Assembly: GCA_035267645.1 (NCBI GenBank)
Contig: DATFLN010000034.1
Location: 100,505-164,504 of the forward strand
Length of the DNA stretch: 64,000 bases
Direction: 5' to 3'
From: Gemmatimonadota bacterium
Lineage (GTDB): Bacteria; Gemmatimonadota; Gemmatimonadetes; Palauibacterales; Palauibacteraceae
The position numbers and the translations under genes are program-made. The stretch's first letter is position 1, and every line of letters begins with the position of its first letter. The notes under the pieces are model-generated. The model was not told where the DNA came from. It worked only from the letters and a program-made list of their open reading frames with translations, and did no database searches. Below, one piece after another: positions 1,677-52,008 of this stretch.

Positions 1677-1872
1677 GGGTGGGGCTCGGACCTCCTGTCG
1701 GCGGTGGCTGTTCGGCACGGCGGCACCAACATAGGCTTCGTGTCTCGGCGCGCGCACGCCGGGCCCGCCGGCGGGGCAGGGCGGAGCGGGAGCGCGCGCG
1801 GCAGGGTCCCCGCCCCGCACCTCGTCCCACGGAGGCCGACGCACGTGAGCGAACCCGCATGACCCGGCCGGC

Positions 1873-2799
1873 ATGACGGCGCCAGCACCGGCGCGAGGCC
1901 GCTCTCGGGCGCGACCCCGCGCCATCCTGAACCCGGCGTCCCCGGGGGCCCGGAAGCGGCCCGATCTGGCCGACCGGCTCGCCGGGGAGCACGGGCTCGA
2001 CGTGCGGGTGACGTCCGGCCCCGGCGACGCGTCCCGGCTGGCGCGCGAGGCGCTGGAGGATGGCGTCGGGACGCTGGTGGTCGCGGGGGGCGACGGCACG
2101 CTGCACGAGGCGGCCGCCGGCCTCGGCGCCGACGCCGGCTCCGCCGGGCTCCGTGTGGCGCTCCTCCCGCTCGGGACCGGGAACGACCTGGCCGCCTCGC
2201 TCGGGATCCCGCTCGAGATCGGGGCGGCCCTGGCGCTCCTCGGGGAGGGGGAGCCCCGCCGCCTGGACCTCGTGCGGGTCGACGGCGGGACCGACGGCTG
2301 GGTCGTGAACTTCGCCATGGGCGGGTTCGCGGGACGGGTGGCCGAGCGCGTCACCCCCCGCCGGCGCAGGATCTGGGGGCGCCACGTCTACCTGAGGGCC
2401 GCCCTGGACGAGGTGCTCGAACGCAGGCCCCGCGAGGTCCGCGTCCGGGCCGACGGCCGCGAGCTCCAGACGGGCCCGCTCCTGGCCCTGGTCGTGGCCA
2501 GCGGCCCGCGCTTCGGGGGCGGGATCCCGATCGCTCCCGGCGCCCTCCCGGACGACGGCCTGCTGGACCTCCTCCTCCTGGACGACGTCTCGCTCCCGGC
2601 GCTCCTCCGGGTGGTGGGCCGGGCCCTCCGCGGCCGGCACCTGGCCGATCCGGTCGTCACCCACCTCCGCGTGCGGAGCGTCGAGGTGGAGGCCGAGCCG
2701 GACCTTCCGTGGAACGGGGACGGCGAGGATCTCGGCACCGGCTCCCGCACGTTCGAAGTGGTCCCCGGCGCTCTCCCGGTCCTCGTGCCGCGGGCCTGA
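1873..2799 (+). CDS. Diacylglycerol/lipid kinase family protein (YegS/BmrU-like)
   Basis: 308-aa ORF carrying the DAGK catalytic-domain motifs VVAGGDGTLHEAA and LLPLGTGNDLAASLGIP. It starts at ATG 1873. Confidence 0.9.
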   Translation: MTAPAPARGRSRARPRAILNPASPGARKRPDLADRLAGEHGLDVRVTSGPGDASRLAREALEDGVGTLVVAGGDGTLHEAAAGLGADAGSAGLRVALLPLGTGNDLAASLGIPLEIGAALALLGEGEPRRLDLVRVDGGTDGWVVNFAMGGFAGRVAERVTPRRRRIWGRHVYLRAALDEVLERRPREVRVRADGRELQTGPLLALVVASGPRFGGGIPIAPGALPDDGLLDLLLLDDVSLPALLRVVGRALRGRHLADPVVTHLRVRSVEVEAEPDLPWNGDGEDLGTGSRTFEVVPGALPVLVPRA

Positions 2800-2931
2800 C
2801 TTTCGGCGAGCGGAAGCCCGGGCAACCCTGCCGCCGGCCGGTCTGTCGAACGTTCGAAAGAAGCGAGGAATCCCTCGCCCCTGATCGTGCCCGGGCCCTC
2901 CTCCGGCGGGCCCTCAGTCGGGAGGATCTCC

Positions 2932-4077
2932 ATGAGTCTCGCCAGGTCGACCGGTCTTCTGCCCGCCTTTCTCGGCCTCGCCGCCCTGAGCGCCCCCGCC
3001 CACGCGGCGCCGGCCGCCCAGGACACCGGCACGGTGACCGTGTCCGGGGGCGAGCCCAGCCCGTACGTCGTCCGCCCGACGCGCACCCGCGTCATCGTGA
3101 ACGGGCCGCAGGACGCCGGCTACCTGGGCGTCCGCGTCACCGACGTCGACAGCGCCGCCGTCTCCCGCCTGGACCTACCGGAGCTGCGCGGGGCGAGGGT
3201 GACCTCGGTGGAGGACAGCTCGCCGGCCGCGAAGGCGGGCCTCCGGGCGGACGACGTGATCCTGGACTTCGATGGGGAGCCGGTCCGCAGCGTGGCCACC
3301 CTCACGCGCATGGTCCGCGAGACGCCCCCGGACCGCAGCGTCCAGCTCCGCGTGGTCCGTGACGGGAAGACTCGACAGGTCACGGTCGTCACGGGCGAGG
3401 CTTCTTCGAGGTTCGGACGGCTGGGCGCCATGGTCGCGCCCGACGTTCGGCTCCGCATGAGCCGCCTCGTGAACGACAGCACCAGGGAGCGCCTCCGGGT
3501 GGAGGTCGAGAAGGCCCGCGAGGAGGCCCGGAAGGCGGGCGAGGAGATGCGGCGCTCGTGGCGCTCGGGCGACCTCGGTCCGCACGGGTTCCTCTTCGAG
3601 CTCGGAGGCCCCGGGCGCCTGGGCGTGAGCCTGCGGCCCCTGGGCGACCAGCTCGGCGCCTACTTCGGCGTGAAGGACGGTGAAGGCGTGCTCGTCGGGA
3701 GCGTGGAGTCCGGCTCGGCCGCCGAGAAGGCGGGCCTGAAGGCCGGCGACGTGATCGTCGAGGTCGGCGGCGAGAAGGTCGAGGGCCCGGGCGACGTGAT
3801 CGAGGCCGTCCACGACGCCGACGCCGGTCCGATCACGGTGAAGGTGATGCGCGACCGGAAGGAGAGGACGGTCACGGTGGACCTCCCCGAGCGACGGCGC
3901 GCCGCGCCGGGTCAGGAGACGTCGTTCCGGCTTCGGGTGCGCCCCGACGCGCCCCTGCCTCCGTTCCACGTGGCGCCCCCCGAGGTCCACGTGGCGCCGC
4001 CGGAGGTTCCCGCGTTCGACGTGCTTCCGCCGCTCCCCGCGCCGCCCGCCCCTCCGGCGGTCGACCGCTACATTTGA
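2932..4077 (+). CDS. Secreted protein with two PDZ domains
   Basis: Signal peptide MSLARSTGLLPAFLGLAALSAPAHA. Two PDZ-like modules are present (GARVTSVEDSSPAAKAGLRADDVILDFDGEPV and GVLVGSVESGSAAEKAGLKAGDVIVEVGGEKV). The tail is a Pro-rich repeat, PPFHVAPPEVHVAPPEVP. The track ORF begins at 2887, but I prefer the in-frame ATG at 2932. Confidence 0.8.
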   Translation: MSLARSTGLLPAFLGLAALSAPAHAAPAAQDTGTVTVSGGEPSPYVVRPTRTRVIVNGPQDAGYLGVRVTDVDSAAVSRLDLPELRGARVTSVEDSSPAAKAGLRADDVILDFDGEPVRSVATLTRMVRETPPDRSVQLRVVRDGKTRQVTVVTGEASSRFGRLGAMVAPDVRLRMSRLVNDSTRERLRVEVEKAREEARKAGEEMRRSWRSGDLGPHGFLFELGGPGRLGVSLRPLGDQLGAYFGVKDGEGVLVGSVESGSAAEKAGLKAGDVIVEVGGEKVEGPGDVIEAVHDADAGPITVKVMRDRKERTVTVDLPERRRAAPGQETSFRLRVRPDAPLPPFHVAPPEVHVAPPEVPAFDVLPPLPAPPAPPAVDRYI

Positions 4078-4090
4078 GCCCCGTTCCGCC

Positions 4091-4121
4091 GCCCGCCGGG
4101 CCGCGCGTCGGCCCGGCGGGC
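4091..4121. terminator. GC-rich hairpin between convergent genes (possible bidirectional terminator, no U-tract)
   Basis: A perfect 13-bp stem pairs GCCCGCCGGGCCG (4091-4103) with CGGCCCGGCGGGC (4109-4121), with loop CGCGT. It sits between the PDZ-protein stop (4077) and the permease stop (4198). Confidence 0.35.
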
Positions 4122-4197
4122 TCCGCGGCGGGCGGGCGGCGTCCCGGGTGGGCCGCTCCGCCCCCCGGGACCCTCCACGCCCCCGGCGCCGCTTCCC

Positions 4198-5565
4198 TCA
4201 GCTCCCGCCGTCCCCGGGGGCCCCGCCGCTCGGCGACAGGCTCACCCGGATCGTCCGCCCCGTGGCGGCCCGGTAGGCCACCTCCACGGCCACCGACAGG
4301 CCCACCAGGAGGACCAGCACCCACAGCCGGCTCGGGTCGGTCCTGACGGTCTGCCACAGGAGCGCCGCCAGCGCGGCCAGGCACGCCGCGGCGCCCACGA
4401 CCCCGACCCAGGCGCGGGAGTCCGTCCGGTCGGCCAGCCGCACGTTGGCCGCGTTGACGCCGGCGAACAGCAGGAGGAAGCCCGCGCTCCCCATGGTCGA
4501 GATGGCCGAGAGGTCCAGGAGGTTGGAGACGAGGAGGGCGGCCGCGGCGGTGATGAGGAGCCCCTCGGCGGGCTCGTTCCAGATCTTCTTCTCGAGGAGG
4601 GCGGGGAGCTCGCCGTCCTTCGCCATGATGTAGCTCAGCCGGGCCGACCCGTACAGCGTGGCGTTGATGGCCGATGCGGTGGAGAGCATGGCCGCCACGG
4701 CGATCAGCGTGAAGCCGAACTGCCCCAGGAACGGGCGCGCCGCCGCGGCCAGCGCGTAGTCCTTCGCCTCCACGATCCTGTCCACGGGCAGGTTCCCGAC
4801 GGTCACGATCGCCACGGCCACGTACAGCGCGACCACGAAGCCCACCGACGTGAAGAAGGCGCGCGGCAGCGTCTTCTCGGGATCCTTCGTGTCGCCTGCG
4901 GTGTTGGCGATGAGCTCGAAGCCCTCGTAGGCGAGGAAGATGATCATCCCGCCCGCGGCGAGCTGGAAGGGGGGCTGCCAGGAGGACGGCGCCAGGCGCC
5001 CGCCCTGGACCCCCCAGATCCCCACGCCCACGAAGAACAGGAGGATCGCCAGCTTGATCCCGACGATCCAGTCCTCCACCTCGCCCACGACCTTCGAGCT
5101 CAGGAGGTTGAGGCCGGCGATCACGACGATCGCGGCGCTGATGAGGACGTGCTTCCACAGGCCCTGCGAGCCCTCCGGGAAGAAAGTCGCGCCGTAGCTC
5201 CCGAAGGCGAAGGCGTACAGGGAGAGCATGACGACGTAGCTGAGCCACAGGAGGACGTTCATGGAACCCGTGAGCGTCCCCTCCCCGAACGCCCGGTTCA
5301 GGAAGGAGACCGTGCCCCCCTGGCTGGGGAAGGTCACCGACAGGCGGCTGTAGGCGTAGGCGGTCACGAGCGCCACGGCGCCGGCGATAGCGAACGCCAC
5401 CGGCGTTCCGCCTCCCGCCAGCTGCACGGCCAGGCCGAGGACGGCGAAGATGCCGCCTCCGACCATGCCCCCCACGCCGATGGAGGCGGCCTCGAGGAAG
5501 CCGACGCCCCCCGAGCCCGAACCGTCCGATGCGTCCGAGCCGCCCTGCTTTCCGTCCCCGCTCAT
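4198..5565 (-). CDS. APC-family amino acid/polyamine permease
   Basis: 455-aa polytopic membrane protein. Its N-terminal block GVGGMVGGGIFAVLG and its overall hydrophobic pattern are typical of APC transporters. Confidence 0.85.
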   Translation of the reverse strand: MSGDGKQGGSDASDGSGSGGVGFLEAASIGVGGMVGGGIFAVLGLAVQLAGGGTPVAFAIAGAVALVTAYAYSRLSVTFPSQGGTVSFLNRAFGEGTLTGSMNVLLWLSYVVMLSLYAFAFGSYGATFFPEGSQGLWKHVLISAAIVVIAGLNLLSSKVVGEVEDWIVGIKLAILLFFVGVGIWGVQGGRLAPSSWQPPFQLAAGGMIIFLAYEGFELIANTAGDTKDPEKTLPRAFFTSVGFVVALYVAVAIVTVGNLPVDRIVEAKDYALAAAARPFLGQFGFTLIAVAAMLSTASAINATLYGSARLSYIMAKDGELPALLEKKIWNEPAEGLLITAAAALLVSNLLDLSAISTMGSAGFLLLFAGVNAANVRLADRTDSRAWVGVVGAAACLAALAALLWQTVRTDPSRLWVLVLLVGLSVAVEVAYRAATGRTIRVSLSPSGGAPGDGGS

Positions 5566-6964: not shown

Positions 6965-7945
6965 ATGGGCTCCAGCTGGATCCGGAATCTGCTGCGGTCG
7001 CTGCCCGACCGCCTCTCGGCCTCGGCCCTGTGGGACCTCCTGCTGTGGATCGTCGTCGCCCTGGTCGTGGCGGGGCTCGTCCGCCTGGCGCGGCGCTGGA
7101 TCGCCCACAACGTGGAGGACGTCAATCGGCGCCACCTCCTCTCCAAGCGGGTGGGCTACGCGGGGGCCCTCTTCCTCGTACTCCTCGGCCTCTCCTTCTT
7201 CGTCGGACACTTCGGGCAGCTGGCCACGGTGATCGGCCTGGTCGGCGCCGGGGCCGCCATCGCCCTCCAGGACGTGGGGAAGAGCGCGGCGGGCTGGCTC
7301 TACCTCACCGGGCACCGCGAGCTGGGGCCCGGGACCCGCATCGAGGTCGGCGGCCTGGTGGGCGAGATCATCGACATCGGCATCTTGAAGACCACGGTCC
7401 TCGAGGTCGGCAACCTGGTGTACGGGCGGCAGTCGAGCGGACGGCTGGCCTCGGTGCCCAACTCCCGGCTGCTCGACGAGAGCGTGTTCTTCACCCCCTC
7501 GGATGGCTCGTACGTGTGGCAGGAGCTCCGATTCCTCCTCACCTTCGAGAGCGACTGGCGGCTGGGCGTCGAGCGGCTGGAGGCGATCGGCCGCGGGGAA
7601 TGGGAGGAGTGGGCCCGCGACGCGGGCGAGAGCTTCCGCGGCATGGGACGGCGCTACGCCCTCAAGTACGGTGCGCTGACGCCGATCGTGTACGTGACGG
7701 TGGCCGACTCGGGCATCGAGCTCACCCTGCGCTACCTGGTGCCCCTGCGGCGAAGGCGCGGCTCGGCCGACCGGGTGGGCCGGGCGATGCTCGAGACCGT
7801 CGAGGCGGAGCCGGGGCTCGACTTCGCCTACCCCACCTGGCGCATGTACCGGCAGGGCGAGGGAGGTCCGTCGGTCGGGAGGGGCCCGGCCGGGTCCGGG
7901 GACGGTGCGGGAGACGACGAGGGAGAGGACGGATGGGACGCGTGA
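6965..7945 (+). CDS. Mechanosensitive ion channel (MscS family)
   Basis: N-terminal TM helices followed by the MscS beta-domain signature GTRIEVGGLVGEIIDIGILKTTVLEVGN. In-frame ATG at 6965 (MGSSWIRN). Confidence 0.85.
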   Translation: MGSSWIRNLLRSLPDRLSASALWDLLLWIVVALVVAGLVRLARRWIAHNVEDVNRRHLLSKRVGYAGALFLVLLGLSFFVGHFGQLATVIGLVGAGAAIALQDVGKSAAGWLYLTGHRELGPGTRIEVGGLVGEIIDIGILKTTVLEVGNLVYGRQSSGRLASVPNSRLLDESVFFTPSDGSYVWQELRFLLTFESDWRLGVERLEAIGRGEWEEWARDAGESFRGMGRRYALKYGALTPIVYVTVADSGIELTLRYLVPLRRRRGSADRVGRAMLETVEAEPGLDFAYPTWRMYRQGEGGPSVGRGPAGSGDGAGDDEGEDGWDA

Positions 7946-8691
7946 CGTCGACGTGGATCGGGGTGGCGGGCGGGCTGGCGCTCGCCGCGGCGGCGGCCTG
8001 GACGGGGTGCCGGGGCGGCGGCTCGGGCGAGCGGTCGTCGGCCCCGGCGGTGCCGGACACCTTCAGGGTCCGGTTCGAGACCTCGGCCGGGCCGTTCACC
8101 GTGCTCGTGCACCGCGCCTGGGCGCCGCGGGGCGCCACGCGCTTCTACCGGCTCGTGGAGGCCGGCTACTTCGACGGAAACCGCTTCTTCCGCGTGATCC
8201 CCGGGTTCGTGGCCCAGTTCGGCATCTCGGGGGACACGGCCCGGGCCCTGGCGTGGCGCCGCCGACCGATCCGGGACGACCCGGTCACCAAGAGCAACAC
8301 CCGCGGCACGCTGACCTTCGCCTCGGCCGGGAACGATACGCGGACCAGCCAGATCTTCATCAACCTGGCCGACAACGCCCGCCTGGACCGGATGGGCTTC
8401 GCGCCCTTCGGGGAGGTGGTGGAGGGGGTGGCCACGGTCGACTCCCTCTACTCCGGCTACGGGGACGGTCCGCCCAAGGGGGAGGGCCCCGATCAGGCGC
8501 GCATCCTCCACGAGGGGAACGCCTACCTGGAGGAGCAGTTCCCGAAGCTGGACTACATCGAGACCGCGCGAGTGGTGGGCGAGACCGGTGCCGGCGAGGC
8601 GGGCCGGGCGGGCCCCGGCTCCGCGGAGGGCGGGGCGGCGGGGGGCGACTCCGCGTCGGCCGGCTCCGGCGCGTCGCCCCCGGGCGCGTAG
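7933..8691 (+). CDS. Peptidyl-prolyl cis-trans isomerase (cyclophilin type), probable lipoprotein
   Basis: This is the C-terminal part of track ORF 5875..8691. Lipobox AAWTGC is followed by cyclophilin blocks FFRVIPGFVAQFG, GTLTFASAG.DTRTSQIFINL and FGEVVEGVATVDSL. The ATG at 7933 overlaps the end of the MscS gene by 13 nt. Confidence 0.9.
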   Translation: MGRVTSTWIGVAGGLALAAAAAWTGCRGGGSGERSSAPAVPDTFRVRFETSAGPFTVLVHRAWAPRGATRFYRLVEAGYFDGNRFFRVIPGFVAQFGISGDTARALAWRRRPIRDDPVTKSNTRGTLTFASAGNDTRTSQIFINLADNARLDRMGFAPFGEVVEGVATVDSLYSGYGDGPPKGEGPDQARILHEGNAYLEEQFPKLDYIETARVVGETGAGEAGRAGPGSAEGGAAGGDSASAGSGASPPGA

Positions 8692-38164: not shown

Positions 38165-38626
38165 CTACTTCTTGGCCTTCACCTCGATCCTGCGCGGCTT
38201 GGCCTCGGGCGCCTTGGGCAGGGTCACCTTCAGCACGCCTTCGGCGAAGTTGGCGTCGATGTCGTCCGGGCTCACCGAACGTGGCAGCGCGTAGCTCCGG
38301 CTGAAGCGGTCCACCGAGCGCTCGCGCAGGTGATACGTGCGCCCCTCGGTCTCCTCGGTCTCCTCGATGCTGCGGGAGCCGGTCACGGTCAGGACGCCGC
38401 GCTCCATCGTGAGCTCGATGTCATCCAGGTCGAAGCCCGGGAGCTCCATCTCGAGCACGAACGCGTCCTCGGTCTCGTACAGGTCCGCCGCGGGACTCCA
38501 CGCGCTCCAGCTGCTGAGCGGACGGCCGAAGAAGTCATCCAGCATGTCGCTCAGCTCCGGGACCATCCTGCCGGTCCACGGACGCCGGGCGGCCACCCGC
38601 CTTCCACTGCTCGTCGTGGGAAGCAT
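38165..38626 (-). CDS. Hsp20/alpha-crystallin small heat-shock protein
   Basis: AGGAGGTGG Shine-Dalgarno then ATG at 38626. Alpha-crystallin domain PAADLYETEDAFVLEMELPGF...GVLTVTG...ERSVDRFSRSYALP...A.FAEGVLKVTLPK. Confidence 0.92.
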   Translation of the reverse strand: MLPTTSSGRRVAARRPWTGRMVPELSDMLDDFFGRPLSSWSAWSPAADLYETEDAFVLEMELPGFDLDDIELTMERGVLTVTGSRSIEETEETEGRTYHLRERSVDRFSRSYALPRSVSPDDIDANFAEGVLKVTLPKAPEAKPRRIEVKAKK

Positions 38627-38734: not shown

Positions 38735-38750
38735 TGCAAGGGCCGTGCCT
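38735..38750 (-). promoter_or_regulatory. Sigma-54 (-24/-12) promoter upstream of hsp20
   Basis: The minus strand reads aGGCACGgcccTTGCAcc, which has the same exact GGCACG-N4-TTGCA core as the site at 49401. It lies about 110 nt upstream of the hsp20 ATG (38626). Confidence 0.55.
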
Positions 38751-38863
38751 GTTTCTGGACACGAAAAGTACGTCATTCTTGCACCTTCGGGCCGCGACGG
38801 ACGGCCGTCACGGCAGACGCCTGCAAACTCGACAGGGGTCGACCGGAGCGGGACCCTCACCGG

Positions 38864-45265: not shown

Positions 45266-48200
45266 ATGATGCGCCGTCGTTCGCTCGCCGCTCTCGCCCT
45301 CCCGCTGCTCGCCCTGGCCGCCGCTCTCGCGCCGACCGCGGTCCCGCACCCGGCGCTCGCGCAGGCCGCCGTGCCCGACAGCGACGCCACGCCCGACACC
45401 GCGGGCGGGCCCGGCTACTACCGCTACCCGGCCCTCCACGACACCACCGTCGCGTTCACCTCCGAGGGCGACCTGTGGACGGTTGGGATCCACGGCGGGG
45501 AGGCGCGGCGGCTCACGACGGGGCTCCGGGAGGAGACGCACGCGGCGTTCTCGCCGGACGGCCGCACGATCGCGTTCACGGCCTCCTACGAGGGTCCCGA
45601 GGAGGTGTACACGATGCCGGTGTCGGGCGGCGTCCCCGAGCGGCGGAGCTGGGACGGGGGCGCGGCCACCGTGGTCGGCTGGACGCCCGACGGGCGCGTC
45701 CTGTACACGACCCGCCACCACTCGACCCTCCCCAACGCCCAGCTCATCGCCCTCGACACGGCCACGCACGAGCGCACCGTGCTCCCGCTGGCCCAGGCCT
45801 CGGACGGGGCCTACGGCCCGGACGGGAAGGTCCTCTTCTTCACGCGCCTCCCGTTCCAGGGGAGCCACACGGACCGCTACCGGGGCGGGAGCGTCCAGCA
45901 GCTCTGGAAGTACCGGGACGGGGCCGACGAGGCCGTCCCGCTCACGACCGGCTACCCCGGGACGAGCAAGGACCCGATGCCGTGGAACGGCAGGGTCGTG
46001 TTCGCCTCCGACCGCGACGGCGTCATGAACCTGTGGTCCATGGACGAGAGCGGCGGCGACCTCCGGCAGCTCACCCGCCACCGGGCCTACAACCTCCAGT
46101 CCCCCTCGCTCTCCGACGGCCGGGTGGTCTACCAGTACGGGGCCGACCTCAGGGTCCTGGACCTCGGCTCGGGCGAGGACCGGGCGCTCCCGATCCGGCT
46201 CTCCTCGGACTTCGGGCAGCTCCGCCCGCACTGGGTCCACGACCCGATGGACTTCCTGACCGACGTCCATCTCTCGCCCGCCGGCGACCGGGTGGTGCTC
46301 ACGGCCCGGGGCCAGCTCTTCGTGGCTCCGGCCGGACAGGGCCGGTTCGTGGAGGGCACGCGCACGAACAGCGTGCGCTGGAGGCGGGCGCGCTTCGCCC
46401 CGGGCGGGGACTCGCTCCTGGCCCTCTCCGACTCCACCGGGGAGGTCGAGATCTGGAAGCTCCCGGCGAACGGCGTGGGCCGACCCCGGCAGCTCACCCG
46501 GGACGGGACGGTCATGCGCTGGGACGCGGTCCCCTCCCCGGACGGGCGCTGGATCGCCCACTACGACAAGGACCACCGCCTCTGGGTCCTGGACACGTCC
46601 ACGGGCCGCTCGAAAGAGATCGACGGCTCCGACTACGGGGACGTCTCGGACCTGGCCTGGTCGCTCGACTCGCGCTGGCTGGCCTACGTCGAGCCGATCG
46701 AGAACGGCTTCCGGAGGATCGTGGTGTGGAGCGCCGACCGCGGCTCGGCCACCCCGGTGACCACCGACCGCTACGTGAGCCGGTCGCCGGCCTGGAGCCG
46801 GGACGGGAAGTGGCTGTATCTCCTGTCGGACCGGCACTTCGTCTCCTCGGTCGGCTCCCCGTGGGGGCCGCGCCAGCCCGAGCCCTACTTCACCCGCACC
46901 ACGAAGATCTACGCGCTCGCGCTCCAGCCGGGCACGCGCTCCCCCTTCCGTCCGGACGACGAGCTGGCCCCGGCGGCCGCCGGCGGCTCCGGTGCCGACG
47001 AGGCCGGCGGGAAGAGCGGGAAGGCCGGGTCGGACACCGCCTCGGCCCCGCCCCGCGTCGAGATCACGCTGGACGGCATCCGGGACCGGCTCGAGGAGGT
47101 CCCGGTCCCGCCCGGGAACTACCGGGACCTCTCGGCGGGCGAGGGGACGCTCTACTGGCTCTCGTCGGAGGACGGTCCGGGCCGGGGACGGACCCTCGAG
47201 GCGCTCGAGGTCACCAACCACGAGCCGAAGCCGGACACCCTGGTCGACGGTGTCCGCGGCTACGAGCTGTCGGCGAGCGGGAAGAAGCTCCTGGTCTGGA
47301 AGGACGACGACCTCTTCGTGCTCGACGCGGGCACGAAGTCACCCGCGAAGCTGGCGGACCACCGGGTGGACCTCTCCGACTGGATGCTGCGGGTCGACCC
47401 GCGGCGGGAGTACATGGAGATGTTCCGCGAGGCGTGGAGGCTCCACCGGGACTACTTCTACGACCCGGGCATGCACGGCGTCGACTGGCCCGCGATGAAG
47501 GAGAAGTACCTCCCGCTGGCCCGGCGCGTGACCGACCGCCAGGAGCTCTCCGACGCGATCGGCCAGATGGTGGCCGAGCTTTCCGCGCTCCATACCTTCG
47601 TGACCAACGGCGACGTGCGTCCGGGCCGGGACACGATCGAGGTGGCCTCGCTCGGGGCGCGCCTCGTGCGCGACCCGGACGCCGGCGGGTACCGGGTGGC
47701 GCACGTGTACCGGTCCGACCCGGACCTCCCCGACGGGCTCTCGCCGCTGGCGCGCCCCGGGGTCGGCGTGCACGAGGGCGACGTGGTCACGTCCATCGAC
47801 GGGGTCCCGACCCTGTCGGTCGCCGACTACCGCTCCCTGCTGCGCCGCAAGGCGGGCGAGCAGACGCTCCTGGGCGTGCGTCCCTCCGGGGGCGGGGCGG
47901 AGCGGCGGGCCATCGCCGAGCCGATCACCCAGCGCGAGGCGGCGGACCTCCGCTACGACGAGTGGGAGTACACCCGGCGCCTCCTGGTCGACAGCCTGAG
48001 CCACGACTCGATCGGCTACGTGCACCTCCGGGCCATGGGCTCGTCGGACATCGCGGATTGGGAGCGCCAGTTCTATCCGGTCTTCGCCCGGAAGGCCCTC
48101 ATCGTCGACGTGCGCAACAACCGCGGCGGGAACATCGACAGCTGGATCCTCGAGAAGCTCATGCGCCGGGCCTGGATGTACTTCAAGCCGAGGGGCGAGA

Positions 48201-48637
48201 AGCCGTCCTGGAACATGCAGGAGGCCTTCCGCGGGCCGATGATCGCGCTCATCAACGAGCACACCGCCTCGGACGGCGAGGCGTTCAGCGCGGGCTTCCG
48301 CCGGCTCGGCCTCGGCAAGCTCCTCGGGACCCGCACCTGGGGCGGGGAGATCTGGCTCAGCTTCGACAACGTGCTCGTGGACGGGGGGATCGCGTCGGCC
48401 GCCGAGATGGGGGTGTACGGACCCGAGGGACAGTGGCTGATCGAGGGCCACGGCGTCGACCCGGACATCGAGGTCGACAACGCGCCGCACGCGACGTTCG
48501 AGGGGAAGGACGCCCAGCTCCGCGCGGCGATCGAGGAGCTGCGGGCGGAGATGAAGGCCCACCCGAACCCCGTGCCGCAGGCGCCCGCCTATCCGGACAA
48601 GAGCGCGGCGGGGAACGGGAAGGGGGAGGGCGGCTGA
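45266..48637 (+). CDS. Tricorn-like protease (S41 family core with N-terminal beta-propellers and PDZ)
   Basis: 1123 aa with a signal peptide. It opens with YYRYPALHDTTVAFTSEGDLW and has SPDG repeats. The C-terminal S41 region reads LIVDVRNNRGGN and NEHTASDGEAFS. Confidence 0.88.
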   Translation: MMRRRSLAALALPLLALAAALAPTAVPHPALAQAAVPDSDATPDTAGGPGYYRYPALHDTTVAFTSEGDLWTVGIHGGEARRLTTGLREETHAAFSPDGRTIAFTASYEGPEEVYTMPVSGGVPERRSWDGGAATVVGWTPDGRVLYTTRHHSTLPNAQLIALDTATHERTVLPLAQASDGAYGPDGKVLFFTRLPFQGSHTDRYRGGSVQQLWKYRDGADEAVPLTTGYPGTSKDPMPWNGRVVFASDRDGVMNLWSMDESGGDLRQLTRHRAYNLQSPSLSDGRVVYQYGADLRVLDLGSGEDRALPIRLSSDFGQLRPHWVHDPMDFLTDVHLSPAGDRVVLTARGQLFVAPAGQGRFVEGTRTNSVRWRRARFAPGGDSLLALSDSTGEVEIWKLPANGVGRPRQLTRDGTVMRWDAVPSPDGRWIAHYDKDHRLWVLDTSTGRSKEIDGSDYGDVSDLAWSLDSRWLAYVEPIENGFRRIVVWSADRGSATPVTTDRYVSRSPAWSRDGKWLYLLSDRHFVSSVGSPWGPRQPEPYFTRTTKIYALALQPGTRSPFRPDDELAPAAAGGSGADEAGGKSGKAGSDTASAPPRVEITLDGIRDRLEEVPVPPGNYRDLSAGEGTLYWLSSEDGPGRGRTLEALEVTNHEPKPDTLVDGVRGYELSASGKKLLVWKDDDLFVLDAGTKSPAKLADHRVDLSDWMLRVDPRREYMEMFREAWRLHRDYFYDPGMHGVDWPAMKEKYLPLARRVTDRQELSDAIGQMVAELSALHTFVTNGDVRPGRDTIEVASLGARLVRDPDAGGYRVAHVYRSDPDLPDGLSPLARPGVGVHEGDVVTSIDGVPTLSVADYRSLLRRKAGEQTLLGVRPSGGGAERRAIAEPITQREAADLRYDEWEYTRRLLVDSLSHDSIGYVHLRAMGSSDIADWERQFYPVFARKALIVDVRNNRGGNIDSWILEKLMRRAWMYFKPRGEKPSWNMQEAFRGPMIALINEHTASDGEAFSAGFRRLGLGKLLGTRTWGGEIWLSFDNVLVDGGIASAAEMGVYGPEGQWLIEGHGVDPDIEVDNAPHATFEGKDAQLRAAIEELRAEMKAHPNPVPQAPAYPDKSAAGNGKGEGG

Positions 48638-48667
48638 GCTCCGGGGCGGCCCCGCCGCCCCCCGCCT

Positions 48668-49060
48668 TCAGCTCGAGCTGCTGGAGGCGGGGAGGCCGCC
48701 GATCTGCCAGAACAGGGAGAGGGTGTCCCCCTGGGTCCAGGCCCGGGAGATCCGCTCCCCGTCCACCTCGTAGATCCCGAGCACCGGCAGCTCGACCGTG
48801 CGGCCGGAGGGAGGCACGCCCATGAACTCCCCCCGGTGGACGCCGCGGATCGTGAGCCGGGCCACGGCCCGGTTCCCGGCTCCGAACACGTCGTGCACCC
48901 GGACGGTGAAGGACGGGAAGGCGGCCTCGAAGTCGGCCAGCTCGTCCGCCAGCTCGGCGTCGGCCACGTAGGTCCGGATCGCGTCCCTGGACTTGGCGCG
49001 GCCCGAAAGGGCCGTGAAGACGTTCCTGACGACCGAGCTCGGATCGGCCGGTGCGCCCAT
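48668..49060 (-). CDS. SnoaL-like / predicted ester cyclase family protein (130 aa)
   Basis: In-frame ATG at 49060 preceded by GGGGAGGA. The pattern VHDVFGAGNRVAARLTIRGVHRGEFMGVPPSGRTVELPVLGIYEVDGERI is typical of the ester-cyclase family. The upstream part of track ORF 48668..49456 is not protein-like. Confidence 0.75.
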   Translation of the reverse strand: MGAPADPSSVVRNVFTALSGRAKSRDAIRTYVADAELADELADFEAAFPSFTVRVHDVFGAGNRAVARLTIRGVHRGEFMGVPPSGRTVELPVLGIYEVDGERISRAWTQGDTLSLFWQIGGLPASSSSS

Positions 49061-49252
49061 GCGGGTCCTCCCCGGACGGCGGTGGACGGGCGTCGCGACG
49101 ACGACGGTAGCGATCGTAGTATACAGTATGCGACCGATCGGAGGAAGGGTCGCCGGGATGCGGCGCGGGAGCTTCCGGACCCGGCCGCAGCCGGTCGCGG
49201 AAGGGGCGCTCGAGCCGGCGGCGTGCCGGGGCGCGGGCCCCCTTCGAGTCGT

Positions 49253-49327
49253 GACAGAATGTCGGGGGGGCGCCGGCCCGGTTCGGGACAGTCTGTCGCC
49301 CGGGGCGGCCCGGGCGGACGGTCCGTC
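49253..49327. promoter_or_regulatory. Array of three 11-bp palindromes (candidate enhancer/UAS for a sigma-54 activator)
   Basis: The three sites are GACAGAATGTC (49253-49263), GACAGTCTGTC (49287-49297) and GACGGTCCGTC (49317-49327). All fit GAC(A/G)G-N-C(T/C)GTC-like dyads, with GACA/TGTC or GACGG/CCGTC arms. Their centres are 34 and 30 bp apart. The last centre lies 79 bp upstream of the -24 element at 49401. Confidence 0.45.
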
Positions 49328-49399
49328 CGGGGCCTCGGAAGGCCCGGATCCCTCACGCCGGGCGGGGTTCCCGGGAGCCGCACCGCGCCGGCCTCCCGG

Positions 49400-49415
49400 G
49401 GGCACGCCGGTTGCA
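49400..49415 (+). promoter_or_regulatory. Sigma-54 (-24/-12) promoter
   Basis: The sequence gGGCACGccggTTGCAct matches the published consensus TGGCACG-N4-TTGCW at every core position except the first T. It sits inside an 864-bp region with no credible ORF. Confidence 0.6.
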
Positions 49416-49424
49416 CTATGAGGA

Positions 49425-49727
49425 AGGCCCTGCGACGAGGAAGCTTCGGCGACCACGACGTGGGTTTCGGCGCCCGATGGTTCGGGCCGGAGGGCGCCAC
49501 GCCTGACGGGAGTTTGGCCCGATCAGGCCGACTGGGAGGTCGTCGGACCCAGTCCGTAGTCCCGGGAACGGGGACGCTTGAGTCGCGAGCTTAGACTCAC
49601 GACGAGGGAAAGAGCCGGCAGCCAGGTCACCACACGGGGTGGCGCCAAACCGACTGGCCAAGGTTCGCCGACGCAACGAGGCCCCCGATCGGATCCGTGA
49701 ATCCGGTCGGGGGTTTCGTCTTGTCTG
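49425..49727 (+). ncRNA. Candidate ~300-nt sigma-54-dependent small RNA (family unknown)
   Basis: The 5' end is predicted about 12 nt downstream of the -12 GC, and the 3' end is set by the intrinsic terminator at 49682-49727. No ORF here has a Shine-Dalgarno or the local codon bias. There are many local helices, for example GGCGCCC 49469-49475 pairing with GGGCGCC 49492-49498. The ends are predictions only. Confidence 0.4.
49682..49727 (+). terminator. Rho-independent terminator
   Basis: A 13-bp stem pairs CCCCCGATCGGAT (49682-49694) with ATCCGGTCGGGGG (49701-49713), including one G-U pair. The loop is CCGTGA and it is followed by TTTCGTCTTGTCTG. No + strand coding gene ends upstream of it. 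Confidence 0.6.
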
Positions 49728-49924
49728 CGGGGCATCCGGTCTCCGCCGCGTGGGGAGTTCCCCACCTTCGGCCTTTCTTCCCGTTTCGCTCTCCGCGCCA
49801 CCTCGTATCTTGAGGATCCCCTCTCGGGGATCTCGACACCTCGACGACAGACGGGCGACGCCTCACCGGCCCCCGCGGGCCCCGGCCGACCCCCCTCGAC
49901 CAGGACGGAGCGAGCGAGACCGGC

Positions 49925-51319
49925 GTGCCACAGCGGGACAGCGATGGGGGGAGTGTCTCCAGGATCCTCGTCCTCGATCGGGACGAGCCGAGGCGGGCGC
50001 GCGTGGCCGCCGTCCTCGAGGGACGGGGCTACCGGGCGCAGACGGCCGGCCGCGGGGACGAGGGGCTCCGCCGGCTCCGTGAGGAGCGCTACGACGCGGC
50101 GATCGCGGCGGCCGACCTCCCCGGCGTCTCCGGGCTCGACCTCCTGGACCGGATCGACCCCCTCGAGACCGACGCCCGGGTCGTGGCCGTCGTGGACGAG
50201 GGGGACGTGGGCTCGGCCGTGGAGGCGATGCGCCGGGGCGCCGCCGACTGCCTCTCCATGCCCCTCGACACCGACCGCCTCCTGGAGGTCGTCGGCCGCG
50301 CGGTCGAGGCGTCGGTGCGCCGCCGGGCCGCACGACGCCGGGACGAGGGAGAGGACGACCTCCGGGTCCCGATCCTGGGCCGCTCGGCCGCCATCCGCCG
50401 CACCATGAGCCTGGTCCGCCGGGTGGCGCCGACCCGCTCCTCCGTGCTCGTGACCGGGGAGACGGGGACGGGGAAGGAGCTGGTGGCCCGGGCCATCCAC
50501 GAGCTGTCGCCGCGGGAGGAAGAGCCGTTCATCGCGGTGGTGTGCTCGGCCCTGCCGGACACGCTGCTCGAGGCCGAGCTGTTCGGCCACCGCAAGGGGA
50601 GCTTCACGGGAGCCCACGCGGACCGGCGCGGGCTCATCGAGGAGGCGCACGGCGGCACCCTCTTCCTGGACGAGATCGCCACCGTGCCCACCGACGTGCA
50701 GGTGAAGCTCCTCCGGGTGCTGGAGGAGCGCAGGGTGCGGCGCGTGGGCGGCGGGGAGATCGTGCCGGTCGATTTCCGCCTGGTGGCCGCCACCAACGAG
50801 GACCTCGAGGACGCCGTGGCGGAGGGGAGCTTCCGGGAGGACCTCTTCTTCCGGCTCAACGTCTTCCCGATCCGGGTGCCGCCGCTCCGCGAGCGGCGCG
50901 AGGACATCCCGGTCCTGGCCGAGCACTTTCGCCGCCGCTTCGCCGAAGAGAGCGGCATCGGGGCGCCGGCCATCCTGCCCGAGACGATGGTCCGCATGCA
51001 GGAGTACCGCTGGCCGGGGAACGTGCGGGAGCTCGAGCACTTCATCGAGCGCGCGATGCTCCTGTACGCGGACCGGGACGCGATCCGCTTCGAGCCGCCG
51101 ACCCGGCGCGGGCGCGGCGAGGCCGGCGACCTCCTGTCCAGGGCGGAGGACGAGCGCTGGGACCTCGAGCGGCTCGAGCGCGAGTACATCCTCCGGATCC
51201 TGGAGGAGGCCGGGGGGAACCGGACCCGGGCCGCCGAGATCCTGGGGGTCCACCGGCGGACCCTGGCCCGCCGGATGGAGCGCTACCGGGAGCGGCCGCG
51301 CTCGGGCCGCCGGTCCTAG
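49925..51319 (+). CDS. Sigma-54-dependent transcriptional activator, NtrC-family response regulator (REC-AAA+-HTH)
   Basis: Receiver domain (ILVLDRDE ... AADLPGVSGLDLL). AAA+ domain with Walker A GETGTGKE, the sigma-54 contact loop GSFTGA (a GAFTGA variant), LFLDEI, RVGG and FREDLFFRLNV. C-terminal Fis-type HTH NRTRAAEILGVHRRTLARRM. GTG start at 49925. Confidence 0.92.
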   Translation: MPQRDSDGGSVSRILVLDRDEPRRARVAAVLEGRGYRAQTAGRGDEGLRRLREERYDAAIAAADLPGVSGLDLLDRIDPLETDARVVAVVDEGDVGSAVEAMRRGAADCLSMPLDTDRLLEVVGRAVEASVRRRAARRRDEGEDDLRVPILGRSAAIRRTMSLVRRVAPTRSSVLVTGETGTGKELVARAIHELSPREEEPFIAVVCSALPDTLLEAELFGHRKGSFTGAHADRRGLIEEAHGGTLFLDEIATVPTDVQVKLLRVLEERRVRRVGGGEIVPVDFRLVAATNEDLEDAVAEGSFREDLFFRLNVFPIRVPPLRERREDIPVLAEHFRRRFAEESGIGAPAILPETMVRMQEYRWPGNVRELEHFIERAMLLYADRDAIRFEPPTRRGRGEAGDLLSRAEDERWDLERLEREYILRILEEAGGNRTRAAEILGVHRRTLARRMERYRERPRSGRRS

Positions 51320-51323
51320 TCGG

Positions 51324-51932
51324 CTAGCCCTTCCTGGCCGGTCGGGGTCCGGCCGGGATCGGGACCATGATGTGGACGTAGGACGTCCCGTCCCACATGA
51401 CCCAGGGTCCCTTCTCGTGCGGCGTGCGCGGAAGGCCCTCGAGCGTCGCGGCGTCCGGAACGAGGATCATGACGTGGGGTCCGGAGTCCTCGATCCACTG
51501 GTTGTCGGGGGTCGGGCTCTCACCGTACGGGTCGACGTTCGAGGTGGGCATGTCGCCCTGGAGCATGTAGCCGAACCCGATCCGGTCGGCGCCATAGGGC
51601 TTCCTGTTCATCCAGGCGTCCGCCCATCGCATCCAGACGTCGTCCAGGCACATGGGCGAGTTGCCGGGGCGGTCCGGCATGTCCGGCAGGCAGGTCCAGC
51701 CGTTCGAGCCTTCCCTCAGGACGTGCCCCTCCCAGTCCCGGACGGCGGCCTCCGCGGAGATCTCGGCCGGCGCCGCGCTCGTGGCGCTGCGGATCATCGC
51801 GTCCCGCTCGGGGGACGCGGGGGCGGCCTGGCCCGCGGCGGGTGCCGCCGCGAGCGCCAGGGTAGCGACGAGTCCGACGGCTGTGACGGTGAGGGCCGTG
51901 AAACGACTCGAAGATCTGGTGACTCCCGACAT
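51324..51932 (-). CDS. Secreted hypothetical protein (202 aa)
   Basis: AAAGGAGG Shine-Dalgarno then ATG at 51932. Signal peptide ...TLALAAAPAAGQA. Good codon bias. The Trp/Pro/Asp-rich mature part (GWTCLPDMPDRPGNSPMCLDDVWMRW...) contains two Cys pairs. I recognised no family. Confidence 0.7.
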   Translation of the reverse strand: MSGVTRSSSRFTALTVTAVGLVATLALAAAPAAGQAAPASPERDAMIRSATSAAPAEISAEAAVRDWEGHVLREGSNGWTCLPDMPDRPGNSPMCLDDVWMRWADAWMNRKPYGADRIGFGYMLQGDMPTSNVDPYGESPTPDNQWIEDSGPHVMILVPDAATLEGLPRTPHEKGPWVMWDGTSYVHIMVPIPAGPRPARKG

Positions 51933-51973
51933 GGGAGGCCTCCTTTCGTGGGGTGGGTGGCGGAGCCGCGTCC

Positions 51974-52008
51974 GGTGCCCGCGCCTCCGGGATGGAGGCG
52001 CGGGCACC
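51974..52008. promoter_or_regulatory. Perfect 15-bp-stem hairpin in the leader or intergenic region upstream of gene 51324..51932
   Basis: GGTGCCCGCGCCTCC (51974-51988) pairs with GGAGGCGCGGGCACC (51994-52008), with loop GGGAT. It lies 42 nt upstream of ATG 51932 and 127 nt downstream of the tauE-family stop. Its function (terminator or leader structure) is not resolved. Confidence 0.35.

What the first reader, a model, noticed from the sequence alone, without database searches (positions are those of the whole stretch)
49253..49415. Enhancer-like array of three 11-bp palindromes upstream of an exact-consensus sigma-54 promoter
Three 11-bp dyads are present: GACAGAATGTC (49253-49263), GACAGTCTGTC (49287-49297) and GACGGTCCGTC (49317-49327).

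- The first two also share flanks (TCGnGACAGnnTGTCG).
- Their centres are spaced 34 and 30 bp apart, roughly three helical turns.
- Their centres lie about 80-145 bp upstream of the -24 element.

This is the classic geometry of bacterial enhancer-binding-protein sites feeding a sigma-54 promoter. The adjacent NtrC-type regulator (49925-51319) is the obvious candidate binder, which would give an autonomous activator/target pair. My rough composition-based estimate is that the 11 fixed bases GGCACG-N4-TTGCA should occur about 0.04 times in 64 kb on both strands. The core occurs twice, and both copies are intergenic and correctly oriented.
Basis: partly seen in the sequence, partly recalled or inferred. 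Interest (0 to 1): 0.62.

Follow-up and report, generated by a model that had tools for sequence, protein, structure and literature searches.

The report
Sigma-54 enhancer driving a small RNA
Two conserved short DNA palindromes sit about 110-145 bases in front of a conserved sigma-54 promoter. They form an ordinary bacterial enhancer, which switches on a roughly 300-base non-coding RNA gene and is most likely bound by the activator protein encoded next door.

Summary
All features are at the stated coordinates. Sites 1 (49253) and 2 (49287) are real regulatory elements. GACA-N3-TGTC occurs only 20 times in the 2.6 Mb assembly, and these two form the only close pair.

In the four genomes of the genus, all 16 specified bases are invariant, against 26% of surrounding positions (p = 3e-9). 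The 34-bp spacing and the GGCACG-N4-TTGC promoter are also conserved. Site 3 (GACGGTCCGTC) is not conserved and is probably chance.

The promoter does not drive the NtrC-type gene directly. It drives a ~297-nt structured, terminator-ended RNA (about 49426-49722) with no Rfam match.

The same dyad type lies 89-113 bp upstream of sigma-54 promoters in sister genera:
- before a 2-oxoacid:ferredoxin oxidoreductase operon;
- before a cytochrome operon;
- at about 130-145 bp, before the orthologues of this activator.

A dyad lies upstream of 10 of 12 orthologues but only 2 of 17 paralogues. That links the motif to this activator lineage, although binding itself is untested.

Homologues of the RNA in other genera use sigma-70-type promoters, so this wiring is specific to the genus. 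The activator here has also lost its phospho-acceptor aspartate. The architecture is known (as in LuxO/Qrr and GlrR/GlmY), so this is a new member of a known kind.

The parts
49253..49263 (.). Enhancer site 1: GACAgaaTGTC, extended form cGTGACA-N3-TGTCGGGG. Its centre is about -168 from the predicted start and 143 bp from the -24 GG.
   Evidence: All 8 specified bases are invariant in the 4 genus genomes. The motif occurs 20 times in 2.6 Mb. No listed change falls within site 1 in the metagenome variants, although that list is truncated.
49287..49297 (.). Enhancer site 2: GACAGtCTGTC, extended form TTcGGGACA-N3-TGTCgC. It lies 34 bp from site 1. Its centre is 109 bp from the -24 GG.
   Evidence: It is invariant in the 4 genomes and the 34-bp spacing has no indels. 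In the metagenome variants the only listed change in site 2 is at unspecified base 49291; that list is truncated.
49317..49327 (.). Third dyad, GACGGtCCGTC. It is not conserved and is probably a chance G+C-rich palindrome, or at most a weak site specific to this genome.
   Evidence: Its arms are invariant at 2 of 8 positions in the genus. It is broken by substitutions and indels in the metagenome variants. The type occurs 20 times genome-wide.
49401..49415 (+). Sigma-54 promoter: GGCACG (-24 element), 4 bases, TTGCA (-12 element).
   Evidence: Two matches in the window against 0.08 expected. Only 9 looser matches (GGCAC-N5-TTGC) in the whole genome. All 10 specified bases are invariant in the genus. 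rpoN is present.
49426..49722 (+). Structured non-coding RNA of about 297 nt, transcribed from the sigma-54 promoter. The start is predicted, not mapped.
   Evidence: 238 of 296 positions are invariant in the genus, against 26% upstream. There are 1-nt indels between relatives. Folding z-score is -3.6. 7 of 33 consensus pairs show compensatory changes. Covariance-model hits fall in 5 genera. There is no Rfam match.
49682..49722 (+). Intrinsic-terminator-like hairpin (13-bp G+C-rich stem) followed by UUUCGUCUU, ending the RNA.
   Evidence: Read from the sequence. It is conserved in the genus and in the RNA homologues of other genera. The consensus scanner did not call it because the T-run is interrupted.
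49784..49811 (+). Conserved block TTTCGC-N16-TATCTT, possibly the activator gene's own sigma-70-type promoter. This is inference only.
   Evidence: It is conserved in the 4 genus genomes while its flanks vary. No promoter was called by the consensus scan.
49925..51319 (+). NtrC-family enhancer-binding protein with receiver, AAA+ (GSFTGA loop) and Fis-type HTH domains. It is the candidate binder of sites 1 and 2. Its receiver lacks the phospho-acceptor Asp.
   Evidence: Pfam domains. There is one clear orthologue per genome in all 12 family genomes tested. The alignment shows loss of the Asp, Thr and Lys of the receiver in this genus. The dyad lies upstream of 10 of 12 orthologues against 2 of 17 paralogues.
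38736..38749 (-). Second exact GGCACG-N4-TTGC promoter in the window, 110 nt upstream of an Hsp20 gene (38165-38626, minus strand). It has no GACA-N3-TGTC dyad.

Best explanation
Sites 1 and 2 (G[T/G]GACA-N3-TGTC, 34 bp apart) are the upstream activating sequence of a sigma-54 promoter at 49401-49415.

Proposed mechanism:
1. RNA polymerase carrying sigma-54 sits on the promoter as a closed complex.
2. Dimers of an NtrC-family activator bind the two dyads and assemble into an ATPase ring.
3. The ring contacts sigma-54 by looping out about 110-145 bp of DNA and opens the promoter.
4. The product is a ~297-nt structured RNA that ends at an intrinsic terminator 200 nt before the activator gene.

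The activator is most likely the protein encoded at 49925-51319. That lineage appears to recognise this dyad throughout the bacterial family. In sister genera, the same motif with a sigma-54 promoter precedes the activator's own gene, a 2-oxoacid:ferredoxin oxidoreductase operon and a cytochrome operon. In this genus the RNA gene is the only detectable target.

The activator here has lost its phospho-acceptor aspartate, so its activity is probably not set by a histidine kinase.

What is shown: the sequence features, their conservation, their rarity, and their co-occurrence with sigma-54 promoters and with the orthologue. What is inferred: binding, looping, RpoN dependence, the start site, and the identity of the binder.
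For: Rarity:
- The motif occurs 20 times in 2.6 Mb, and this is the only close pair.
- The promoter core is found 2 times against 0.08 expected.

Phylogenetic footprint:
- 16 of 16 dyad bases and 10 of 10 promoter bases are invariant, against 48 of 185 background positions (Fisher p = 2.7e-9). The 34-bp spacing is fixed.
- The dyads stay with the promoter even where the upstream gene differs.

Machinery: rpoN and about 10 activators are present. The adjacent protein has all three activator domains.

Same module elsewhere:
- The double dyad is found in 11 of 114 family genomes, with 0 control hits.
- It lies 89-103 bp upstream of GGCATGGATGATGCA before korA/korB-like genes in 12 genomes of one genus, and also in a second genus.
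- It lies 92 bp upstream of GGCATTCTGGTTGCG before a multihaem cytochrome, Rieske and cytochrome b operon.

Link to this activator:
- One clear orthologue per genome, at 450-517 bits against 351 or fewer for paralogues.
- A dyad with at most one mismatch lies within 700 bp upstream of 10 of 12 orthologues and 2 of 17 paralogues.
- Conserved sigma-54-like promoters stand before the orthologue in two other genera.

Single target here: this is the only dyad plus sigma-54 locus in the assembly.

Precedent: LuxO/Qrr1 uses two TTGCAWWWTGCAA sites (PMC10162802). GlrR/GlmY uses three TGTC-N10-GACA sites more than 100 bp upstream (PMC3045617).
Against: - There is no expression or binding data, and no RNA runs hold the locus.
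- The assembly is only 70% complete, so other targets or activators may be missing.
- About nine other activators in the genome could bind instead.
- The HTH recognition helix (RRTLxRK) is generic across paralogues, so specificity cannot be read from the sequence.
- Orthologues within one genus are not independent data points. In effect the dyad-orthologue link rests on three genera out of five.
- In two genera (g10, g11) the orthologue has no dyad upstream.
- Site spacing varies between loci (28-39 bp), so helical phasing is not strictly kept.
- The loose test of dyad plus promoter across the family gives only 73 real against 41 control matches (hand tally).
Confidence: 0.6

Rival explanations
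1. The module is a real sigma-54 enhancer and promoter, but the dyads are bound by a different activator encoded elsewhere. Adjacency to 49925-51319 would then be coincidental.
For: About ten activator genes are present in a 70%-complete assembly. In sister genera the dyad-bearing korAB and cytochrome promoters have no activator gene within 8 kb, so the binder can act in trans. The HTH sequences are too generic to assign specificity.
Against: The dyad is found upstream of 10 of 12 orthologues of this protein and 2 of 17 paralogues. The RNA-activator adjacency is conserved in all four genus genomes.
Confidence: 0.2
2. The promoter mainly serves positive autoregulation of the activator gene, as in sister genera. 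The ~297-nt RNA would act as a cis leader whose terminator is read through conditionally, rather than as an independent RNA gene.
For: In two other genera the orthologue is directly preceded by a dyad, a sigma-54-like promoter and a ~170-200-nt leader. Here the RNA and the activator gene are co-oriented and 200 nt apart. The terminator's T-run is interrupted.
Against: Homologues of the RNA are stand-alone, often multi-copy genes with their own sigma-70-type promoters and terminators. They have no activator gene within 1.5 kb. A separately conserved block lies between the terminator and the activator gene. This rival is compatible with the main explanation as a secondary effect.
Confidence: 0.15
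3. The dyads are operators of a regulator that is not an enhancer-binding protein, for example a repressor or a regulator of the divergent SnoaL-like gene. They would be unrelated to the sigma-54 promoter.
For: GACA-N3-TGTC-like palindromes also occur in A+T-rich promoter regions next to a divergently transcribed gene, provisionally read as a TetR-like regulator and not domain-checked, in two family genomes.
Against: The SnoaL-like gene is absent upstream of the dyads in the other genus genomes, yet the dyads persist. The dyads keep a fixed distance to the sigma-54 promoter. The pairing of dyads with sigma-54 promoters recurs at unrelated operons.
Confidence: 0.04
4. All three dyads are chance palindromes in a 73% G+C genome.
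For: The loose class GACRNNNYGTC occurs at the chance rate. Site 3 behaves like background.
Against: For sites 1 and 2: rarity, a footprint with p = 2.7e-9, and 0 control hits for the double dyad in 114 genomes.
Confidence: 0.02

Closest known systems
LuxO and the qrr small-RNA promoters of Vibrionaceae
   Same: An NtrC-family activator (receiver, AAA+, HTH) activates a sigma-54 promoter of a small-RNA gene. It acts through two short palindromes with a 3-bp centre (TTGCA-WWW-TGCAA) upstream of the promoter (PMC10162802). From my own knowledge, qrr1 lies next to luxO.
   Different: The half-site sequence differs (GACA/TGTC). The sites lie further upstream (109 and 143 bp from -24). The RNA is ~297 nt, highly structured and unrelated to Qrr, with no Rfam hit. 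The activator here lacks the phospho-acceptor Asp. The host phylum is different.
GlrR (QseF) with glmY/glmZ in Enterobacteriaceae
   Same: These are sigma-54-dependent small-RNA genes with multiple TGTC/GACA-type activator sites more than 100 bp upstream. The activator is encoded just downstream of the RNA gene and transcribed independently. [quoted passage not shown] The same promoter-class switch is seen here between genera.
   Different: GlrR sites are everted TGTC-N10-GACA, and there are three of them plus IHF sites. Here there are two inverted GACA-N3-TGTC sites and no A+T-rich IHF-like site. The RNA is not homologous to GlmY or GlmZ. No kinase is adjacent, and the receiver is degenerate.
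NtrC at glnAp2 (the classical bacterial enhancer)
   Same: From my own knowledge, two dyad sites about three helical turns apart, centred more than 100 bp upstream of a -24/-12 promoter, nucleate an activator oligomer that acts by DNA looping.
   Different: The site sequence and target differ. NtrC depends on phosphorylation, whereas this protein cannot be phosphorylated at the canonical Asp.

Membership tests
Sigma-54 promoter with upstream enhancer (UAS) for an NtrC-family activator | A -24 GG / -12 GC promoter with TGGCAC-N5-TTGC spacing | tested here: met
   GGCACGCCGGTTGCA at 49401-49415. It is found 2 times against 0.08 expected and is invariant in the genus. Position -26 is G, not T.
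Sigma-54 promoter with upstream enhancer (UAS) for an NtrC-family activator | The genome encodes sigma-54 (RpoN) | tested here: met
   A Sigma54_DBD match at E = 5e-65 in contig C15.
Sigma-54 promoter with upstream enhancer (UAS) for an NtrC-family activator | An activator with an AAA+ sigma-54 interaction domain, a GAFTGA-type loop and a DNA-binding HTH | tested here: met
   Sigma54_activat at E = 6e-69 and HTH_8 at E = 7e-15. The loop is GSFTGA in all orthologues.
Sigma-54 promoter with upstream enhancer (UAS) for an NtrC-family activator | Conserved dyad-symmetric sites roughly 80-200 bp upstream of the promoter | tested here: met
   Two sites are conserved. The third is not conserved.
Sigma-54 promoter with upstream enhancer (UAS) for an NtrC-family activator | The activator binds the sites, and transcription depends on RpoN and on ATP hydrolysis | not testable with these tools
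   No RNA data are available. This needs EMSA, footprinting or reporter assays.
GlrR/GlmY system | The RNA is homologous to GlmY or GlmZ | tested here: not met
   No Rfam family matches at E <= 1, apart from a spurious miRNA hit on the terminator.
GlrR/GlmY system | Activator sites of the form TGTC-N10-GACA | tested here: not met
   The sites are GACA-N3-TGTC.
LuxO/Qrr system | A Qrr-family RNA and a TTGCAWWWTGCAA UAS | tested here: not met
   No Qrr match. The geometry is the same 3-bp-centred palindrome, but the half-site differs (PMC10162802).
Two-component response regulator (phosphorylatable receiver) | The phospho-acceptor Asp at the end of beta-3, plus the conserved Thr/Ser and Lys | tested here: not met
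   Orthologues in four other genera read LLD(L/I)(N/E)LP...T(A/G)..., and KP. This genus reads AA(A/R)(D/R)LP, with V/A and M/R at the other two positions. The identification of these positions rests on general knowledge of receiver domains.

The most novel reading that the evidence does not exclude
One activator lineage is shared across this bacterial family. Elsewhere its G(G/T)GACA-N3-TGTC(C/A)C sites sit before energy-metabolism operons (2-oxoacid:ferredoxin oxidoreductase, cytochromes) and before its own gene. In one genus it has been rewired so that its only target is a structured ~297-nt RNA.

In this reading:
- The RNA has swapped a sigma-70 promoter for the activator's sigma-54 enhancer module.
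- The activator has lost phosphorylation control.
- The RNA may have taken over, post-transcriptionally, the control that the activator exerts directly in sister genera.
Probability: 0.3. Interest if true: 0.6.

Novelty: new member of a known kind. Interest (0 to 1): 0.45.

Why it matters
- It gives a concrete, testable DNA motif, G(G/T)GACA-N3-TGTC, for a so far uncharacterised sigma-54 activator lineage of an uncultured, high-G+C soil and sediment clade. I did not verify that here.
- It identifies the control region of a new structured RNA.
- It shows regulon rewiring and promoter-class switching between closely related genera, which parallels what is known for GlmY/GlmZ.
- The enhancer architecture itself is textbook. 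The interest lies in the target and its evolution, not in the mechanism.

Tried and rejected
- Rfam at E <= 1 on 48000-52000 gave only a spurious miRNA hit on the terminator.
- No public RNA run holds the RNA, so the start site and RpoN dependence could not be checked. The DNA runs only added sequence variants.
- The search for related loci with the activator protein returned paralogue-level hits from other phyla and no clade members, so it was uninformative. The phylum was therefore not verified.
- I looked for other targets in the own genome. No other exact dyad lies 50-220 bp from a GG-N10-GC promoter. I read the contexts of five of the other 18: four lie in long open frames and one lies in an unrelated A+T-rich sigma-70-type promoter region. 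One-mismatch dyads near promoter-like strings turned up at four other places; I read only one (C79), which lies in what reads as coding sequence.
- korA of the own genome has neither dyad nor sigma-54 promoter.
- The double-dyad hits in G052 and G062 lie in A+T-rich promoter regions next to a divergently transcribed gene, provisionally read as a TetR-like regulator and not domain-checked. They are unrelated. I did not examine the hits in G008 and G126.
- I considered an overlapping sigma-70 promoter, as at E. coli glmY. A TAT(C/G)A motif follows the -12 element, but no -35 element is present. I rejected this from reading the sequence only.
- I considered a small ORF starting at ATG 49419. I rejected it because it starts inside the promoter and because 1-nt indels occur among relatives.

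Full report
**Observation**

Their centres are 34 and 30 bp apart, and they lie 143, 109 and 79 bp from the -24 GG.

Two corrections are needed.
- Site 1 (GACAgaaTGTC) is a 4-3-4 dyad, not a perfect 11-mer.
- The loose class GACRNNNYGTC is not unusual: 12 in the window against 12.2 expected.

The informative unit is GACA-N3-TGTC. It occurs only 20 times in the 2.6 Mb assembly, and sites 1 and 2 are the only pair closer than 100 bp. By my own rough estimate, about 0.015 such pairs would be expected by chance.

The promoter core GGCACG-N4-TTGC occurs twice in the window against 0.08 expected. It occurs 5 times in the whole assembly, or 9 times for the looser GGCAC-N5-TTGC. The second copy in the window lies 110 nt upstream of an Hsp20 gene.

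**Conservation**

Three other genomes of the same genus carry the locus. I aligned them with the window.

| Region | Invariant positions |
|---|---|
| Specified bases of sites 1 and 2 | 16 of 16 |
| Specified promoter bases | 10 of 10 |
| Other positions, 49200-49400 | 48 of 185 (Fisher p = 2.7e-9 against the dyads) |
| Arms of site 3 | 2 of 8 |

- The 34-bp spacing between sites 1 and 2 has no indels.
- Site 3 behaves like background. In metagenome contig variants it is hit by substitutions and indels. In those variants no listed change falls on a specified base of site 1 or 2, and homology with the window begins just before site 1, at 49246-49250. The variant list was truncated (74 changes not shown), so this is weak support only.
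- The SnoaL-like gene upstream in this genome is absent in the relatives, where the tricorn protease gene abuts the dyads. The dyads therefore belong to the promoter side, not to the divergent gene.

**What the promoter drives**

The conserved stretch starts just after the promoter and runs to a strong hairpin plus U-rich tail at 49682-49722. Within it, 238 of 296 positions are invariant.

Several results show that it is a structured RNA and not a coding sequence:
- It carries 1-nt indels among relatives.
- It folds better than shuffles, with z = -3.6.
- 7 of 33 consensus pairs show compensatory changes.
- It has no Rfam match.

A covariance model finds it in five genera of the family, often in several copies.

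An earlier agent of this scan had already called this RNA a new sigma-54-controlled family. My tests agree with that call.

I add that outside this genus most copies sit behind TTGAC(A/G)-N16/17-TAnnAT sigma-70-type promoters at the equivalent distance. They have no dyads and no activator gene within 1.5 kb. Two single genomes show sigma-54-like promoters without exact dyads. The sigma-54 and dyad wiring is therefore specific to this genus. A comparable promoter-class switch is documented for GlmY/GlmZ (PMC3045617).

**The dyad elsewhere**

The double dyad occurs in 11 of 114 family genomes, with no hits for the control pattern.

- In a sister genus, 12 genomes share the module cGTCACAAnGTCCC..GGGACcTTGTGACAGGATGTCCCAC, then about 88 nt, then GGCATGGATGATGCACCAC. 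It stands in front of a 2-oxoacid:ferredoxin oxidoreductase alpha/beta pair. A further genus has the same arrangement.
- In another genus, two dyads lie 92 bp upstream of GGCATTCTGGTTGCG, before a multihaem cytochrome c, Rieske and cytochrome b operon.
- No activator gene lies within 8 kb of these loci.
- A loose family-wide search for a dyad 80-110 bp before GGCAY-N7-GC gave 73 real against 41 control matches by my hand tally. By eye, many of the real matches carry the extension TGTCCC.
- In the own genome the oxidoreductase gene has neither dyad nor sigma-54 promoter. No other exact dyad lies near a sigma-54-like promoter.

**Who binds**

The adjacent protein has receiver, AAA+ and HTH_8 domains. 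Its closest solved relatives are NtrC-family proteins. It has one unambiguous orthologue in each of 12 family genomes tested, at 450-785 bits against 351 or fewer for paralogues.

A dyad with at most one mismatch lies within 700 bp upstream of 10 of 12 orthologues, covering three genera. It is found upstream of only 2 of 17 paralogues.

In two of those genera a conserved sigma-54-like promoter lies between the dyad and the orthologue: CTGGCACACTTCCGGCAAGG in one and CCGGCATGACACCCGCATCA in the other. That arrangement suggests positive autoregulation.

This is the main argument that the motif belongs to this activator lineage. It is circumstantial. Orthologues within a genus are not independent, and the HTH sequence is too generic to read specificity from it.

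**An unexpected detail**

In this genus the receiver has lost the phospho-acceptor Asp as well as the conserved Thr and Lys. Orthologues in four other genera keep all three. In one of those genera the orthologue follows a histidine-kinase gene.

The activator here is therefore probably not kinase-controlled. This contradicts an earlier first-reader note on that gene.

**Mechanism and classification**

The best reading is a standard bacterial enhancer. Two activator dimers on sites 1 and 2 nucleate the AAA+ ring, which loops to the sigma-54 closed complex and opens it. The product is the RNA, and read-through into the activator gene is possible but secondary.

The closest described systems are:
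- LuxO/Qrr, with two TTGCAWWWTGCAA palindromes that share the 3-bp-centred geometry (PMC10162802);
- GlrR/GlmY (PMC3045617).

The locus is not a member of either system, because neither the RNA nor the site sequence matches. It is a new member of a known kind. The architecture is ordinary. The target RNA and the inter-genus rewiring give it moderate interest.

No expression data exist. Binding, RpoN dependence and the transcription start all remain to be shown.

Noticed in passing
window 49925-51319 (residues about 14-123): The receiver domain of the activator has lost the phospho-acceptor Asp, the Thr and the Lys in all four genomes of this genus. Orthologues in four other genera keep them, so this is a pseudo-receiver. 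No kinase gene is adjacent.
   Followed up: partly
L024 (G042:C109) about 7770-8050; L014, L059-L071; L087 (G015): In two sister genera a strongly conserved sigma-54 promoter, GGCATGGA(T/A)GATGCACCA, stands in front of a 2-oxoacid:ferredoxin oxidoreductase alpha/beta operon. Upstream of it is a composite palindromic enhancer that contains the same GACA-N3-TGTC unit. Sigma-54 control of this enzyme may be of interest in its own right.
   Followed up: partly
L006, L008, L007/L009, L093-L110: Homologues of the structured RNA are multi-copy in two genera. One genome has two tandem copies, and one of those carries a ~100-nt insertion. They are driven by near-consensus TTGACA-N16/17-TAnnAT promoters.
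   Followed up: partly
window 49757-49816: A block conserved in the genus lies between the RNA terminator and the activator gene: TTCGGCCTTTCTTCCCGTTTCGC...GTATCTTGAG. It may be the activator's own promoter.
   Followed up: no
window 38736-38860 (minus strand): The Hsp20 gene has an exact sigma-54 core promoter with a different upstream palindrome, GACGGCCGTC/GACGG-N4-CCGTC, about 45-60 bp upstream. It presumably serves another activator.
   Followed up: no
window 48668-49060 (minus strand): The SnoaL-like gene is present here but absent at this position in the three other genus genomes. This is a small indel of one gene between the tricorn protease gene and the enhancer.
   Followed up: partly
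L026 (G093:C9) 600-5000: A multihaem cytochrome c, a small cytochrome c, a Rieske-like protein and a cytochrome b form an operon behind a sigma-54-like promoter with two dyads. I saw this in one genome only and did not check conservation within its genus.
   Followed up: no
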